Origin: Escherichia coli O157:H7
GTDB taxonomy: Bacteria > Pseudomonadota > Gammaproteobacteria > Enterobacterales > Enterobacteriaceae
DNA: 64,000 bases
Reading direction: 5' to 3' (one strand)
Assembly (NCBI RefSeq): GCF_013167455.1
Contig: NZ_CP038328.1
Made by a program: the position numbers. Shown here in pieces: positions 7,401 through 12,029 of this stretch (within the stretch, counting starts at the first letter, position 1; the number at the start of each line of letters is the position of its first letter).

Positions 7401-10400
7401 GCCCCACCATCACAGGCCACCAGCCACTGGGCTTTGACTATTTCCCGCAGCCCTTCTGCCGTTTTCAGGTGCAAGGTCACTTCGTCATCTTGCTGACTGA
7501 AGGCCTCCAGCTCGCGGGAAAACAAGCAGCGCACATTCGGAAAACGCGACACCCCTTCCAGCATCACCGCATCGACCTGCGGCTGAATAAAGGCGTTACG
7601 GCGCGGCCAGCCAAATTCATCGGTCATTGGCTGAATATCAGCAAAACAGCGGCCCTTCGGGGTGAGAAAACGCATCGCGTGCCACGGCGTAGTATGCGGC
7701 AGAACATTATCGACCAGGCCGACCGACTGCATGGTGCGCAGCGCCTCGTCATCAATACCAATCGCACGCGGGTAGTCGATCAACTTATCGAGTTTCTCCA
7801 CCACCAGCACGTCAATGCCCATCTGGCCGAGATAGTTCGCCATCATCAGCCCGACCGGACCGGCACCAGCGATCGCCACCTGAACGCTATGGTTAACAGC
7901 AGGCTGGATGTCAGGGTGTTGTATTGCCATTTCAGTACCTCACGACTCGGACAAAATGCCGTTGCGCGCACAGTACAGCGCAACTTATTTTGTTAAAAAT
8001 ATGTAAATGATTTTTTATTGTGCGCTCAGTATAGAAAGGGTGTTTTCGGCTACAATCAAAACATGCCCGAATGTGCACCAGGTGCACAACGTTGTTTTAA
8101 CTATAGAAATGTCAATTAATATGCAGAACAATGAGCAGACGGAATACAAAACCGTGCGCGGCTTAACCCGCGGTCTAATGTTATTAAATATGTTAAATAA
8201 ACTTGACGGCGGTGCCAGCGTCGGGCTGCTGGCGGAACTCAGCGGCCTGCATCGCACCACTGTGCGGCGACTGCTGGAGACGCTGCAGGAAGAGGGATAT
8301 GTCCGGCGTAGTCCCTCCGATGATAGTTTTCGTCTGACCATCAAAGTGCGGCAATTAAGCGAAGGATTTCGTGACGAACAGTGGATTTCTGCACTGGCGG
8401 CCCCACTGCTGGGCGATCTGTTGCGCGAAGTGGTATGGCCGACAGATGTGTCCACGCTGGATGTTGATGCAATGGTGGTACGCGAAACCACTCACCGTTT
8501 CAGCCGCTTATCCTTTCACCGGGCAATGGTCGGGCGGCGTTTACCGCTTCTGAAAACCGCCTCGGGCCTGACCTGGCTGGCCTTTTGCCCGGAACAAGAA
8601 CGCAAGGAATTAATCGAGATGTTAGCCTCCCGCCCCGGTGATGACTATCAACTGGCACGAGAACCGTTAAAGCTGGAAGCCATTCTGGCGCGCGCGCGCA
8701 AAGAGGGTTACGGACAGAACTACCGCGGCTGGGATCAGGAGGAGAAGATCGCCTCTATCGCCGTACCGCTGCGCAGTGAACAACGGGTGATTGGCTGTCT
8801 GAATCTGGTGTATATGGCGAGCGCAATGACCATCGAACAGGCAGCGGAAAAGCATCTTCCGGCACTACAACGGGTAGCAAAACAGATCGAAGAAGGGGTT
8901 GAATCGCAGGCTATTCTGGTGGCCGGACGGCGAAGCGGCGTGCATTTACGCTAGTTACGCCAATGTGTAATTTGGCCCATTCTCATCGTTATTCGCCCAT
9001 TTGCCCACATGCACAGTACGGGCTGCACGCTACGCTAATGACATCAATACTGTGATGTGGAGCAAATCATGAAAATTACGCAAATTCGTAATGCCACCCA
9101 AATTATCCAATACGCTGGCAAAACATTTCTTATCGACCCGTTACTCGCGCCTAAAGGAAGTTATCCGGGTTTTGCCGGAACGGCACGCGCAGAAATCCGC
9201 AATCCAACGGTAGAATTACCGTGCGATTTAACAACGTTACTCAACGTTGACGCCCTAATCGTGACCCATTTGCATGAAGATCACTGGGACGAAACAGCCT
9301 CCCGCGTCGTCCCTAAAGATAAACTGATTTATGTGCAAAATGAGCAAGATGCTGAATCACTGAATAAACAAGGATTTACGCATCTTACCGTACTTACCGA
9401 CGAGACTAAATTTGGCGATATTACTCTGCATAAAACGACAGGGCAGCACGGCTCCGATCGCACCTATGCCGACCCGGCGATGGCGAAGCGTTTAGGCGCA
9501 GCTTGCGGCGTTGTTTTCCAGCACCCGACAGAGAAAACGCTCTATCTGGCTGGCGATACCCTCTGGCGTGACGACGTCGAGGCTACAATGCTAACTTTCC
9601 AACCAGAAGTGGTTGTGTTGAATGCCGGATTTGCGCATGTTCTGGGGCATGGCGCGATAATTATGGGAGCAGAAGATATTCTCAAAACACATTTTACCCT
9701 CCCAGAAGCGCAAATTATCGCGACACATATGGAGGCCGTAAACCACTGTTTGCTGACGCGTGATGCGCTCAAGGAATACGCCAGAGATAATCAAATTATC
9801 GAATTTGTGAACGTACCAGAAGATGGTGAAACGTTGACATTCTAATTCGGAGATAAAGAGTGTTATGCGCCCGCTAACTGTTGCCATTATCGCCGTTGCC
9901 GGTTTTAGTCCTTTTCACCTTTCCGTACCGTTTATCGTGTTTAGTGAAAAGATGGCGGAGAAAAAACGCTTTCACGTGATTATTTGCGCTGAAAAGCCGG
10001 GAAACGTGGACTCTGCCGATGGGTTTTCCGTAACCGCCACCCATGACTATACCGCAGTCATCCAGGCAGATATTGTGATAATTCCTTACTGGGGAACCAT
10101 TACACAAAAACCGCCACAAAAACTGCTGGAAGCCTTAACGACCGCACGGGATAACGGCGCACAGATTGTCGGGCTTTGCCTGGGCACGTTTGTGCTCGGC
10201 TATGCAGGTTTACTGAAAAATAAGCGTGCCGCCACGCACTGGGAGTTCGAGCGTGAATTTCAGGCACGTTTTCCACAAACACATCTGGATATTAACGCGT
10301 TGTACGTAGACGATGACGGCATTATTACCTCTGCCGGTACTGCCGCGGCGCTGGATTGCTGTTTGTATATTGTTCGGCAACATTTTGGCAGCGACTATGC

Positions 10401-12029
10401 TAACCATATTGCCCGACGGATGGTCGTACCGCCATATCGCACCGGCGGTCAGGCGCAGTTTATTGAGCAACCGGTGCCGAAAAATACCCATGATGAACGC
10501 ATAAACCTCCTGCTGGATTACCTGCGGCAAAACATTGCGCAACAGCATGATCTCGACTCGCTGGCGCAGCGAGTAATGATGAGTCGCCGCACATTAACTC
10601 GCCATTTTATGAAAGCGACCGGTTCGAGTATCGCCGAATGGCTCATTACTGAACGCTTACGCCGTAGCCAGGAACTGTTGGGATCCAGTCAGTTGCCCGT
10701 TGAGCGGATAGCGGCTGAGGTGGGTTTTCTCTCACCTGTGACCTGGCGTCAGCATTTTAAATCTCACTTCGGCGTCAGCCCCGCCGAATGGCGCAAAACC
10801 TTTCGCGGTATGGCATGATAGCGCCCGGAAGAGAGTCAATTCAGGGTGGTGAATGTGAAACCAGTAACGCTATACGATGTCGCAGAGTATGCCGGTGTCT
10901 CTTATCAGACCGTTTCCCGCGTGGTGAATCAGGCCAGCCACGTTTCTGCGAAAACGCGGGAAAAAGTGGAAGCGGCGATGGCGGAGCTGAATTACATTCC
11001 CAACCGCGTGGCACAACAACTGGCGGGGAAACAGTCGTTGCTGATTGGCGTTGCCACCTCCAGTCTGGCCCTGCACGCGCCGTCGCAAATTGTCGCGGCG
11101 ATTAAATCTCGCGCCGATCAACTGGGTGCCAGCGTGGTGGTGTCGATGGTAGAACGAAGCGGCGTCGAAGCCTGTAAAGCGGCAGTGCACAATCTTCTCG
11201 CGCAACGCGTCAGTGGGCTGATCATTAACTATCCGCTGGATGACCAGGATGCCATTGCTGTGGAAGCTGCCTGCGCTAATGTTCCGGCGTTATTTCTTGA
11301 TGTCTCTGACCAGACTCCCATCAACAGTATTATTTTCTCCCATGAAGACGGTACGCGACTGGGCGTGGAGCATCTGGTCGCATTGGGTCACCAGCAAATC
11401 GCGCTGTTAGCGGGCCCATTAAGTTCTGTCTCGGCGCGTCTGCGTCTGGCGGGCTGGCATAAATATCTCACTCGCAATCAAATTCAGCCGATAGCGGAAC
11501 GGGAGGGCGACTGGAGTGCCATGTCCGGTTTTCAACAAACCATGCAAATGCTAAATGAGGGCATCGTTCCCACTGCGATGCTGGTTGCCAACGATCAGAT
11601 GGCGCTGGGCGCAATGCGCGCCATTACCGAGTCCGGGTTGCGCGTTGGTGCGGATATCTCGGTAGTGGGATACGACGATACCGAAGACAGCTCGTGTTAT
11701 ATCCCGCCGTTAACCACCATCAAACAGGATTTTCGCCTGCTGGGGCAAACCAGCGTGGACCGCTTGCTGCAACTCTCTCAGGGCCAGGCGGTGAAGGGCA
11801 ATCAGCTGTTGCCCGTCTCACTGGTGAAAAGAAAAACCACCCTGGCGCCCAAGACGCAAACCGCTTCTCCCCGCGCGTTGGCCGATTCATTAATGCAGCT
11901 GGCACGACAAGTTTCCCGACTGGAAAGCGGGCAGTGAGCGCAACGCAATTAATGTGAGTCAGCTCACTCATTAGGCACCCCACGCTTTACACTCTATGCG
12001 TCCGGCTCGTATGTTGTGTGAAATTGTGA

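What the first reader, a model, noticed from the sequence alone, without database searches (positions are those of the whole stretch)
9069..10855. Two-gene islet between mhpR and lacI, with the lacI promoter inside the 3' end of the regulator gene
An MBL-fold hydrolase gene and a GlxA-type regulator gene lie where I recall mhpR and lacI being adjacent in K-12. The regulator ORF runs through the lacI -35/-10 hexamers and stops 36 nt before the lacI GTG, so the sequence known as the lacI promoter is the tail of this gene.
Basis: partly seen in the sequence, partly recalled or inferred. Interest (0 to 1): 0.5.

Follow-up and report, generated by a model that had tools for sequence, protein, structure and literature searches.

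The report
lacI promoter sits inside ovrA's tail
The two extra genes between mhpR and lacI are the already-named O-island 19 of E. coli O157:H7, and comparison with other genomes indicates it is ancestral, so the textbook K-12 lacI promoter is the leftover last ten codons of the regulator gene ovrA.

Summary
The window matches O157:H7 at 100% identity here. It carries an MBL-fold hydrolase gene (9069-9845) and a DJ-1/PfpI + AraC regulator gene (9865-10818) that stops 36 nt before the lacI GTG (10855).

The islet is not new. It is O-island 19 (z0443 + z0442/ovrA), and OvrA is published as a LEE1/ler activator.

- **Remnant in K-12.** The 69 nt upstream of lacI are identical to the window. They encode OvrA's last 10 codons (EWRKTFRGMA) plus the stop. 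The -35 lies on W309-R310-K311 and the -10 overlaps the stop codon.
- **Polarity.** Citrobacter sedlakii has the same mhpR-hydrolase-regulator-36 nt-lacI-lacZ order. A second E. coli allele, in 487 genomes including the type strain, keeps a 99-nt ovrA remnant next to yaiL. The "island" is therefore ancestral and was deleted at least twice. Of 5426 complete genomes, 435 keep it and 4462 have the K-12-type junction.
- **Likely function.** z0443 is 54% identical over its full length to crystallised isothiocyanate hydrolase SaxA. OvrA is 57% identical to the regulator encoded beside that SaxA gene. A 38-nt motif lies upstream of the hydrolase gene, or of the gene divergent from the regulator, in all 80 related loci.

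Function is inferred, not shown. Interest is moderate.

The parts
8121..8954 (+). mhpR (IclR-type regulator of the mhp operon), left flank of the islet
   Evidence: PGAP coordinates transferred from L004. It is 99.3% aa identical to K-12 mhpR. Five of the last 27 nt differ from K-12, against about 1.6% over the previous 1.5 kb.
8958..8965 (+). Left copy of the microhomology CGCCAATG, a candidate deletion end-point for the mhpR|lacI junction alleles
   Evidence: Read from the sequence. Joining it to the right copy predicts '...TAGTTACGCC|GAATGG', the same length as the K-12 and CI5 junctions. The CI5-type junction CGTTAATGCCGCCGAATGG keeps the CGCC.
8973..9010 (+). Conserved 38-nt operator-like motif (TGGCCCATTCTCATCGTTATTCGCCCATTTGCCCACAT) about 60-95 nt upstream of the hydrolase start. 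Inferred OvrA binding site overlapping the -35 of the z0443-ovrA promoter.
   Evidence: The best PWM hit in each of 80 related loci falls at the equivalent place and orientation. A PWM trained without E. coli or Citrobacter ranks this site 2nd of about 128,000 window positions.
9069..9845 (+). z0443: MBL-fold hydrolase, SaxA-type isothiocyanate hydrolase homologue
   Evidence: PDB 6BRM SaxA: E 5.6e-88, full length, 54% identity. Pfam Lactamase_B_2. H67/H69/D71/H72, H127, D163 and H220 are invariant in 64 homologues. Expression is RpoS-dependent, about 10-fold, in EDL933 (PMC2907692).
9865..10818 (+). ovrA (z0442): GlxA-type regulator with an N-terminal DJ-1/PfpI-like domain and a C-terminal AraC HTH
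   Evidence: Pfam. PGAP name 'OI-19-encoded virulence regulator OvrA'. Reviews PMC8565820 and PMC10877973. 57% identical to the regulator encoded next to crystallised SaxA. C105, H125 and R310 are invariant in 79 homologues.
10720..10818 (+). Part of ovrA (last 33 codons) that survives as a pseudogene remnant next to yaiL in the third E. coli allele
   Evidence: Strain 317 and the type strain ATCC 11775; 487 genomes.
10782..10790 (+). Right copy of the microhomology CGCCGAATG, inside ovrA codons 306-309
   Evidence: Read from the sequence.
10786..10854 (+). The 69 nt that K-12 retains upstream of lacI: the last 10 codons of ovrA (EWRKTFRGMA), the stop codon and the 36-nt spacer. This is the classical lacI promoter and leader.
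   Evidence: Identical in K-12 BW25113 and the window.
10791..10796 (+). lacI -35 hexamer GCGCAA, lying on ovrA codons W309-R310-K311
   Evidence: Position read. Its identity as the -35 is recalled from memory (Calos 1978). The I^q change GCGCAA>GTGCAA would make R310C, and R310 is invariant in the family.
10814..10819 (+). lacI -10 hexamer CATGAT, containing the ovrA stop codon TGA (10816-10818)
   Evidence: Read. It is conserved as CATGAT/CATCAT next to lacI in Citrobacter even where an insertion separates it from ovrA.
10855..11937 (+). lacI
   Evidence: PGAP; 98.9% aa identical to K-12 LacI.

Best explanation
The 1.8-kb segment is O-island 19 of EHEC O157:H7. It is a two-gene unit, z0443-ovrA, immediately upstream of lacI.

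Shown: the canonical lacI promoter lies inside the last ten codons of ovrA. The -35 is on W309-R310-K311 and the -10 is on the stop codon.

Shown: the mhpR-z0443-ovrA-36 nt-lacI-lacZ arrangement is shared with Citrobacter sedlakii. Most E. coli carry deletion alleles that keep only the tail of ovrA, 33 nt in the K-12 type and 99 nt in the yaiL-junction type.

It follows that the segment is ancestral and was lost at least twice. The K-12 'lacI promoter' is a fossil of the ovrA 3' end. Each surviving deletion kept the stretch needed to express lacI.

Inferred: z0443 is a SaxA-type isothiocyanate hydrolase. OvrA is its cognate activator, of the type encoded beside SaxA genes, with a DJ-1/PfpI-like sensor domain (invariant Cys105) and an AraC HTH. 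It would act at the conserved 38-nt site (8973-9010) that overlaps the -35 region of the z0443-ovrA promoter.

Inferred: no terminator-like site was found between ovrA and lacI, so transcription of the unit probably reads into lacI in strains that keep the island. The published activation of LEE1 by OvrA would then be a secondary recruitment of an older detoxification regulator.
For: Anatomy.

Identity with OI-19/ovrA: 100% identity to EDL933 and Sakai, plus the PGAP name. The reviews give OI-19 as 1834 bp with z0442/ovrA and z0443.

K-12 junction: TGA + CACCATC + 69 nt identical to window 10786-10854.

Third allele: yaiL | 99-nt ovrA remnant | lacI, which PGAP itself calls a truncated GlxA-family pseudogene.

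Counts in 5426 complete genomes: 435 with OI-19, 4462 with the K-12-type junction, 487 with the yaiL junction.

Outgroup: 14 Citrobacter loci have hydrolase-regulator-lacI-lacZ (13 of 14 with lacI, one without). C. sedlakii has the same 36-nt gap and the same C-terminus GVSPAEWRKTFRGMA*.

Divergence: E. coli-Citrobacter divergence of the two genes (77-80% aa) matches lacI and lacZ (80-83%). Synonymous divergence among E. coli alleles reaches 0.07-0.10 with pN/pS 0.03-0.18. This indicates long residence under purifying selection.

No island hallmarks: there are no mobility genes and no flanking repeats beyond an 8-9-nt microhomology, and GC is 0.48-0.52.

SaxA link. The regulator next to the 6BRM gene has the same architecture and is 57% identical to OvrA. 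The hydrolase-regulator pairing is conserved in either orientation in 64 of 80 loci from Gamma-, Beta- and Deltaproteobacteria.

Motif.

No terminator-like site in 10819-10854.
Against: No Escherichia species representative other than E. coli showed an ovrA orthologue in the genome scan. Ancestry is therefore shown for E. coli plus Citrobacter, not for the whole genus, and an old transfer of the whole mhpR-to-lacZ block cannot be excluded.

The 7 nt CACCATC at the K-12 junction match neither flank of the island.

The published OvrA site at LEE1 (GACATTTAATGATAATG) does not resemble the conserved motif and is absent upstream of z0443.

The held-out PWM scores the E. coli site only 9.9, behind one chance hit inside prpD.

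Isothiocyanate hydrolase activity, OvrA binding at 8973-9010, use of the internal promoter in O157 and read-through into lacI are all untested. The hexamer assignment rests on recalled literature.
Confidence: 0.8

Rival explanations
1. Conventional 'O-island' reading. OI-19 is foreign DNA that inserted between mhpR and a pre-existing lacI promoter in the O157 lineage, and K-12 shows the original state.
For: It is catalogued as one of 177 O islands defined by absence from K-12. Only 8% of complete E. coli genomes carry it. No other Escherichia species representative showed an orthologue.
Against: The homology with K-12 starts 33 nt inside the ovrA ORF. An insertion would have had to fuse in frame to resident DNA that already encoded EWRKTFRGMA*, which is the family's conserved C-terminal motif. 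P306, R310 and F313 are invariant in 79 homologues.

A second allele keeps 99 nt of ovrA with a different left junction. Citrobacter shares the synteny and the 36-nt gap. There are no mobility genes or terminal repeats, and composition is ordinary.
Confidence: 0.04
2. The overlap is real but functionally idle in island-bearing strains. There, lacI would be transcribed mainly as the third gene of a z0443-ovrA-lacI (or mhpR-...-lacI) transcript, and the internal hexamers became the working promoter only after the deletion.
For: No terminator-like site lies between mhpR, z0443, ovrA and lacI on the + strand, apart from one weak match inside ovrA. The internal promoter is so weak that the consensus scan does not report it.
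Against: The 69 nt are identical in O157 and K-12. The -10 region stays next to lacI in Citrobacter even where an insertion cuts lacI off from ovrA, which suggests the -10 is used in its own right. No expression data were available here.
Confidence: 0.3
3. z0443 and OvrA have nothing to do with isothiocyanates in E. coli. OvrA is a dedicated virulence regulator of LEE1, and z0443 is an MBL hydrolase with another substrate.
For: The published work reports direct OvrA binding at LEE1 and no virulence phenotype for a z0443 deletion. Identity to SaxA is 54%, which does not fix substrate. NCBIfam has no SaxA model, and OvrA falls below the FtrA cut-off.
Against: Orthologous pairs occur in Citrobacter, Kluyvera, Erwinia, Aeromonas, Geomonas and others and in non-O157 E. 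coli; LEE carriage was not checked here, but these taxa are not known for it, so LEE control is unlikely to be the family's function.

The pair and its upstream motif are conserved as a unit with a bona fide SaxA gene. All MBL metal-ligand positions are invariant.
Confidence: 0.3

Closest known systems
O-island 19 (z0443, z0442/ovrA) of EHEC O157:H7 EDL933; OvrA described by Liu et al. 2020, J Infect Dis 221:820 (known here only through reviews PMC8565820 and PMC10877973)
   Same: It is the same DNA. There is 100% identity to EDL933 and Sakai, the size is 1834 bp between mhpR and lacI, and it has the same two ORFs.
   Different: The reviews treat it as an O157-specific island, call z0443 a protein of unknown function, and do not mention lacI. 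No paper in the searched library contains both 'ovrA' and 'lacI'. The results here indicate it is ancestral, that it carries the lacI promoter in its last codons, and that z0443 has a strong SaxA match.
saxA / saxCAB isothiocyanate-resistance genes of Pseudomonas syringae and Pectobacterium (SaxA structure PDB 6BRM)
   Same: Z0443 aligns over its full length with SaxA (54% identity, E 5.6e-88) with all metal ligands present. The 6BRM gene is followed by a DJ-1_PfpI + HTH_18 regulator that is 57% identical to OvrA, in the same order and orientation. A similar upstream motif is present.
   Different: No enzymatic or phenotypic data exist for the E. coli protein. The 6BRM locus sits in a Tn3-family transposon with an isochorismatase gene and a LysE-type exporter gene, whereas OI-19 is chromosomal and has only two genes. 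I could not compare OvrA with the P. syringae SaxC sequence itself. That SaxC is AraC-type is recalled from memory, not tested.
The lacI promoter of E. coli K-12 (Calos 1978; the I^q up-mutation in the -35)
   Same: The 69 nt upstream of the GTG are identical, so the hexamers, spacer and leader are the same.
   Different: In the window these bases are also coding sequence. The -35 spells W309-R310-K311 of OvrA and the -10 contains its stop codon. The I^q change would be R310C at an invariant residue.
GlxA/GATase-1-containing AraC regulators (GbdR, CdhR, FtrA-like; COG4977)
   Same: Same two-domain architecture, with the nucleophile-elbow cysteine retained.
   Different: It is below the curated cut-offs for FtrA (324 bits against 425) and GbdR (125 against 480). 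It forms its own subfamily that is consistently paired with a SaxA-like hydrolase.

Membership tests
O-island 19 / ovrA | Sequence identity with EDL933 OI-19 and position between mhpR and lacI | tested here: met
   100% identity over 1632 nt to EDL933 (H46) and Sakai (H47), and mhpR/lacI flank it.
O-island 19 / ovrA | OvrA binds the LEE1 promoter and activates ler | not testable with these tools
   Taken from reviews. The LEE is not in this window. The published 17-nt motif has only two 3-mismatch matches in the window, neither near the islet.
Horizontally acquired genomic island | Mobility genes, tRNA or att-type flanking repeats, deviant composition, and absence from outgroups at the same site | tested here: not met
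   The islet has two ORFs only and no integrase or transposase. There are no flanking repeats beyond an 8-9-nt microhomology. GC is 0.48-0.52 against 0.55 in the flanks. The same site is occupied in Citrobacter. In-frame remnants remain in genomes without the island.
SaxA-type isothiocyanate hydrolase | Full-length homology to a structurally characterised SaxA | tested here: met
   6BRM: E 5.6e-88, residues 1-258 against 1-259, 54% identity, one 1-residue gap.
SaxA-type isothiocyanate hydrolase | MBL metal-binding motifs (HxHxDH and the later His/Asp ligands) | tested here: met
   H67, H69, D71, H72, H127, D163, H220 and H226 are invariant in 64 homologues, including Z0443.
SaxA-type isothiocyanate hydrolase | Hydrolysis of isothiocyanates to amines; ITC tolerance phenotype | not testable with these tools
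   No biochemical or genetic data for Z0443 were found. The reviews call it unknown.
SaxA-type isothiocyanate hydrolase | Genetic linkage to a dedicated regulator (saxC-type) | tested here: met
   A DJ-1_PfpI + HTH_18 gene lies next to the 6BRM gene and is 57% identical to OvrA. The pair is adjacent in 64 of 80 loci. Identity with P. syringae SaxC itself was not tested.
GlxA-type (DJ-1/PfpI + AraC HTH) regulators | N-terminal DJ-1/PfpI-like domain with the elbow cysteine, and a C-terminal double HTH | tested here: met
   Pfam PF01965 at residues 6-171 and PF12833 at 233-311. C105 is invariant.
FtrA (NCBIfam NF006902 equivalog) | Score at or above the curated cut-off of 425 bits | tested here: not met
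   323.9 bits.
lacI promoter (sigma-70, weak constitutive) | Same sequence as the K-12 promoter from -44 to the start codon | tested here: met
   69/69 identical.
lacI promoter (sigma-70, weak constitutive) | Transcription starts about 28 nt upstream of the GTG in this genomic context | not testable with these tools
   No transcript data. The TSS position (about 10827) is recalled from the K-12 literature.

The most novel reading that the evidence does not exclude
OvrA would be an isothiocyanate/electrophile sensor acting through invariant Cys105 of its DJ-1-like domain. Its native job would be to switch on the SaxA-type hydrolase z0443. In island-bearing E. coli such as O157:H7, O55:H7 and O145:H28, dietary crucifer isothiocyanates would then be the missing signal for OvrA-dependent LEE activation. 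By read-through they would also raise LacI dosage. The famously weak lacI promoter would be weak because it arose from, and in the ancestor was constrained by, coding sequence for an invariant Trp-Arg motif.
Probability: 0.2. Interest if true: 0.7.

Novelty: already known. Interest (0 to 1): 0.4.

Why it matters
The object itself (OI-19, ovrA, the lacI promoter) is known, so nothing categorically new is claimed. Three re-readings could matter.

1. A promoter carried in countless lacI-bearing vectors is a relic of the C-terminal codons of another gene. This is a clean, datable example of a promoter born from coding sequence. The surviving deletion alleles all kept it, which is consistent with selection for lacI expression.

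2. An "O-island" counted among O157-specific acquisitions is an ancestral segment lost by most E. coli. That changes how its distribution should be interpreted.

3. The hydrolase that the EHEC literature calls unknown has a strong SaxA match, and OvrA belongs to the regulator type that accompanies SaxA genes. This gives a concrete, testable candidate signal for a published virulence regulator: isothiocyanates from brassica feed or food.

Tried and rejected
- **Published OvrA motif.** I searched the window for GACATTTAATGATAATG with up to 3 mismatches. There were only two matches (12437 in lacZ, 32553), none near the islet. It gives no support for autoregulation through that motif.
- **Consensus promoter/terminator scan of 8800-11000.** It does not report the lacI promoter because the promoter is too weak. 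It finds no terminator between the genes.
- **FtrA or GbdR membership of OvrA.** Rejected, because both scores are below the curated cut-offs.
- **Origin of the K-12 junction filler CACCATC.** It matches neither island flank in O157, in four divergent OI-19 alleles or in Citrobacter. The CI5-type junction (TGCCGCC) fits a microhomology deletion and differs from K-12 by five transitions in 10 nt. The cause is unresolved.
- **Held-out PWM.** Its top window hit (27183-27220, - strand) lies inside the prpD coding sequence and was set aside as chance.
- **Primary papers.** Liu 2020 (OvrA), van den Bosch 2018 and Welte 2016 (SaxA) are not held.
- **Literature searches.** A search for the hexamers returned nothing usable. 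Searches for lacI+mhpR+O157, 'lacI promoter'+mhpR, z0442/z0443 and ovrA+lacI found no paper describing the overlap.
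Full report
**1. What is in the sequence**

Between mhpR (8121-8954) and lacI (GTG at 10855) the window carries two co-directional ORFs. One is 258 codons (9069-9845) and the other 317 codons (9865-10818), 19 nt apart.

The second ORF stops at TGA 10816-10818, exactly 36 nt before the lacI GTG. Pfam finds Lactamase_B_2 in the first protein and DJ-1_PfpI (6-171) plus HTH_18/HTH_AraC (233-311) in the second. In NCBIfam the regulator is closest to FtrA but below the curated cut-off, 324 bits against 425.

The window is 100% identical to O157:H7 genomes. PGAP annotates the same two CDSs there.

**2. It already has a name**

Newer RefSeq annotations call the regulator 'OI-19-encoded virulence regulator OvrA'. 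Two reviews describe O-island 19 of EDL933 as an 1834-bp island with z0442 (ovrA) and z0443. OvrA is reported to bind a 17-bp site in the LEE1 promoter and activate ler. z0443 is called a protein of unknown function with no virulence phenotype (PMC8565820 and PMC10877973).

A microarray study lists Z0443 as about 10-fold RpoS-dependent (PMC2907692). The primary OvrA paper could not be read.

**3. The lacI promoter is the tail of ovrA**

In K-12 (BW25113), mhpR and lacI are 76 nt apart. That spacer is the mhpR stop, 7 nt (CACCATC), and then 69 nt identical to window 10786-10854.

Those 69 nt begin GAA TGG CGC AAA ACC TTT CGC GGT ATG GCA TGA. These are the last ten codons (EWRKTFRGMA) and the stop of ovrA, in frame.

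The hexamers I recall as the lacI -35 (GCGCAA) and -10 (CATGAT) from Calos 1978 lie at 10791-10796 and 10814-10819, with a 17-nt spacer. The -35 therefore spells W309-R310-K311, and the -10 contains the stop codon.

P306, R310 and F313 are invariant in 79 homologues. The classical I^q change (GCGCAA to GTGCAA, also recalled) would be R310C.

**4. Polarity: deletion in K-12, not insertion in O157**

Four lines of evidence point the same way.

- **In-frame remnant.** Homology with K-12 starts inside the ORF. Under an insertion model, resident DNA would by chance have supplied the family's conserved C-terminal motif and a stop codon in frame.
- **A second, independent remnant.** In strain 317 and in the type strain ATCC 11775, yaiL is joined directly to the last 99 nt of ovrA, followed by lacI. 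The whole mhp cluster, z0443 and 284 codons of ovrA are missing. PGAP annotates the piece as a truncated GlxA-family pseudogene.
- **Outgroup synteny.** A scan of species-representative genomes found the closest orthologues (76-80% aa) in 14 Citrobacter genomes. Thirteen have hydrolase-regulator-lacI-lacZ. One lacks lacI. Several also have mhpA/mhpR upstream. C. sedlakii has exactly mhpA<-mhpR->hydrolase->regulator->36 nt->lacI->lacZ with the C-terminus GVSPAEWRKTFRGMA*. The C. freundii complex has a 202-codon ORF on the opposite strand inserted between the regulator's last codons and the lacI -10 region. C. youngae ATCC 29220 keeps only a 115-nt trace of it.
- **No island hallmarks.** There are no mobility genes and no terminal repeats, and GC is 0.48-0.52. 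E. coli-Citrobacter divergence of the two genes (77-80% aa) matches that of lacI and lacZ (80-83%). Among E. coli alleles, synonymous divergence reaches 0.07-0.10 while pN/pS is 0.03-0.18. This indicates long residence under purifying selection.

One caveat remains. No other Escherichia species representative yielded an orthologue. An ancient transfer of the whole mhpR-to-lacZ block between the E. coli and Citrobacter lineages is not excluded.

**5. Population picture (5426 complete E. coli genomes)**

| Allele | Genomes | Share |
|---|---|---|
| K-12-type mhpR\|lacI junction | 4462 | 82% |
| yaiL\|remnant\|lacI junction | 487 | 9% |
| Full OI-19, always chromosomal, one copy | 435 | 8% |

Carriers of the island include O157:H7, O55:H7 and O145:H28. 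They also include isolates from urine, a pig, a baboon and wastewater. Every allele keeps at least the 69 nt upstream of lacI.

**6. How the K-12 junction arose**

An 8-9-nt microhomology lies at both ends: CGCCAATG at 8958-8965 and CGCCGAATG at 10782-10790. Recombination through it predicts a junction of exactly the observed length.

A minority junction variant (strain CI5; 165 genomes at 99% identity or more) reads CGT TAA TGCCGCC GAATGG and fits this model. The common K-12 form, CGT TGA CACCATC GAATGG, differs from it by five transitions in 10 nt.

The last 27 nt of mhpR carry 5 of the 29 K-12/O157 differences found in 1.55 kb. I have no explanation for this local excess.

**7. What the two genes probably do**

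Z0443 matches PDB 6BRM, 'metal-dependent isothiocyanate hydrolase SaxA', over its full length (E 5.6e-88, 54% identity, one single-residue gap). All MBL metal-ligand positions are invariant in 64 homologues.

The gene encoding exactly the 6BRM sequence is followed, in the same orientation, by a 324-aa DJ-1_PfpI + HTH_18 regulator. That regulator is 57% identical to OvrA over 315 residues. The module there sits in a Tn3-family transposon with an isochorismatase gene and a LysE-type exporter gene.

The sax literature describes a saxCAB cluster with an ITC hydrolase (saxA) and a transcriptional regulator (saxC). I could not compare OvrA with SaxC itself.

Across the 80 loci fetched, the hydrolase is adjacent to the regulator in 64. 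It is co-directional in Enterobacteriaceae, Erwinia, Aeromonas, Vibrio and Geomonas. It is divergent in Burkholderiales, Marinobacter, Halomonas and others.

**8. A conserved cis-element**

A 38-nt motif (consensus TGGCCCgAt..T..CGAt.aTTG.C.....GGcCAcT) is the single best PWM hit, on either strand, in all 80 loci. It always lies upstream of and oriented towards the hydrolase gene. Where there is no hydrolase, it points towards the gene divergent from the regulator, an isochorismatase-family gene in the one such locus examined, Pseudomonas sp. L047.

In the window it is at 8973-9010. A -10-like hexamer follows 22-23 nt after the motif in the taxa I inspected by eye. That is the geometry of an activator site overlapping the -35.

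The PWM was refined on its own hits, so the scores are circular. The consistency of position is not. A PWM trained without E. coli or Citrobacter still ranks the window site 2nd of about 128,000 positions, behind a hit inside prpD that I regard as chance. In the transposon-borne locus the motif also precedes the isochorismatase gene.

I infer that OvrA-type regulators activate the hydrolase gene, and here their own operon, from this site. The invariant Cys105/His125 of the DJ-1-like domain is a plausible sensor of electrophilic isothiocyanates. None of this is shown.

The motif does not resemble the published LEE1 site. Either OvrA has relaxed specificity at the AT-rich LEE1 promoter, or the conserved motif belongs to another factor.

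**9. Consequences for lacI**

No terminator-like structure separates mhpR, z0443, ovrA and lacI. In island-bearing strains lacI is probably also the distal gene of the z0443-ovrA transcript, with the weak internal promoter providing a basal level. After the deletions only the internal promoter, plus any read-through from mhpR or yaiL-side transcription, remained. This is inference, and transcript mapping would settle it.

**10. Verdict**

The islet is a known, named element, so novelty of kind is nil. The added value is threefold:
- the polarity, ancestral and lost at least twice, each time sparing the promoter-bearing tail;
- the reading of the textbook lacI promoter as a gene fossil constrained by an invariant Trp-Arg motif;
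- the SaxA-type and cognate-regulator assignment, which proposes isothiocyanates as the natural signal of a published EHEC virulence regulator.

I found no paper linking ovrA with lacI or z0443 with SaxA in the searchable library. That library omits most subscription journals.

Noticed in passing
L011 6948-7556 (- strand), and equivalents in L005-L014, L017 and L018; trace in L015 6952-7066: In the Citrobacter freundii complex, a 202-codon ORF on the opposite strand is inserted between the last codons of the ovrA orthologue and the lacI -10 region. It carries a SAM-methyltransferase-like motif (IVDIGCGNG). The insertion gives the regulator new C-termini (GD*, GV*, GA*) and separates the -35 from the -10. 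C. youngae ATCC 29220 keeps only about 115 nt of it.
   Followed up: partly
L091-L093 (contigs encoding the exact PDB 6BRM SaxA sequence), 2232-8780: The crystallised SaxA gene and its OvrA-like regulator lie in a Tn3-family transposon context (resolvase + DDE_Tnp_Tn3) together with an isochorismatase gene and a LysE-type exporter gene. The exact protein is indexed in 308 blocks of the assembly collection, so this module is mobile and widespread. The operator-like motif also precedes the isochorismatase gene (L091 2118-2155).
   Followed up: partly
L038-L080 (loci with the divergent arrangement), e.g. L038 about 5560-5762 (- strand): In Burkholderiales, Marinobacter and Halomonas the SaxA-like hydrolase has an N-terminal extension that looks like a signal peptide (e.g. 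MKAFTPLLVSLSLGAFAATAWSAP). The enterobacterial and Aeromonas proteins start directly at MK(I/L)TQIRNAT. This suggests periplasmic versus cytoplasmic versions of the enzyme.
   Followed up: no
window 8928-8954 versus L001 1529-1555: The last 27 nt of mhpR carry 5 of the 29 differences between K-12 and O157 in 1.55 kb, including TAG versus TGA stop codons at the same position. The adjacent 7-nt junction filler differs between the K-12-type (CACCATC) and CI5-type (TGCCGCC) alleles only by transitions. This is a local excess of substitutions at the deletion scar with no explanation.
   Followed up: partly
window 27183-27220 (- strand), inside prpD (26060-27511): This is the best window match (score 15.1) to the operator PWM trained on non-enterobacterial loci. 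It lies within coding sequence of 2-methylcitrate dehydratase and was treated as chance.
   Followed up: partly
L001 2721-3020 (BW25113, just downstream of lacI): PGAP annotates a 'relaxase/mobilization nuclease domain-containing protein' pseudogene fragment where lacZ should start. This presumably reflects the engineered lacZ deletion scar of BW25113 rather than a natural feature.
   Followed up: no
NZ_CP171243.1 (4523-bp record labelled E. coli Nissle 1917), 3690-3759; matches window 10785-10854: A small plasmid record carries the 70-nt lacI promoter/leader piece, that is, the ovrA tail. This illustrates that lacI-bearing constructs carry the last codons of ovrA along with them.
   Followed up: no
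L047 5256-5957 (- strand), Pseudomonas sp. SJZ079; the other loci without an adjacent hydrolase (e.g. L050, L053, L057, L070) were not inspected: In L047 the OvrA-like regulator is paired divergently with an isochorismatase-family gene instead of a SaxA-like hydrolase, with the same operator-like motif pointing at it. This recalls the saxB partner of the sax cluster. I recall saxB as isochorismatase-like from memory and did not verify it.
   Followed up: partly
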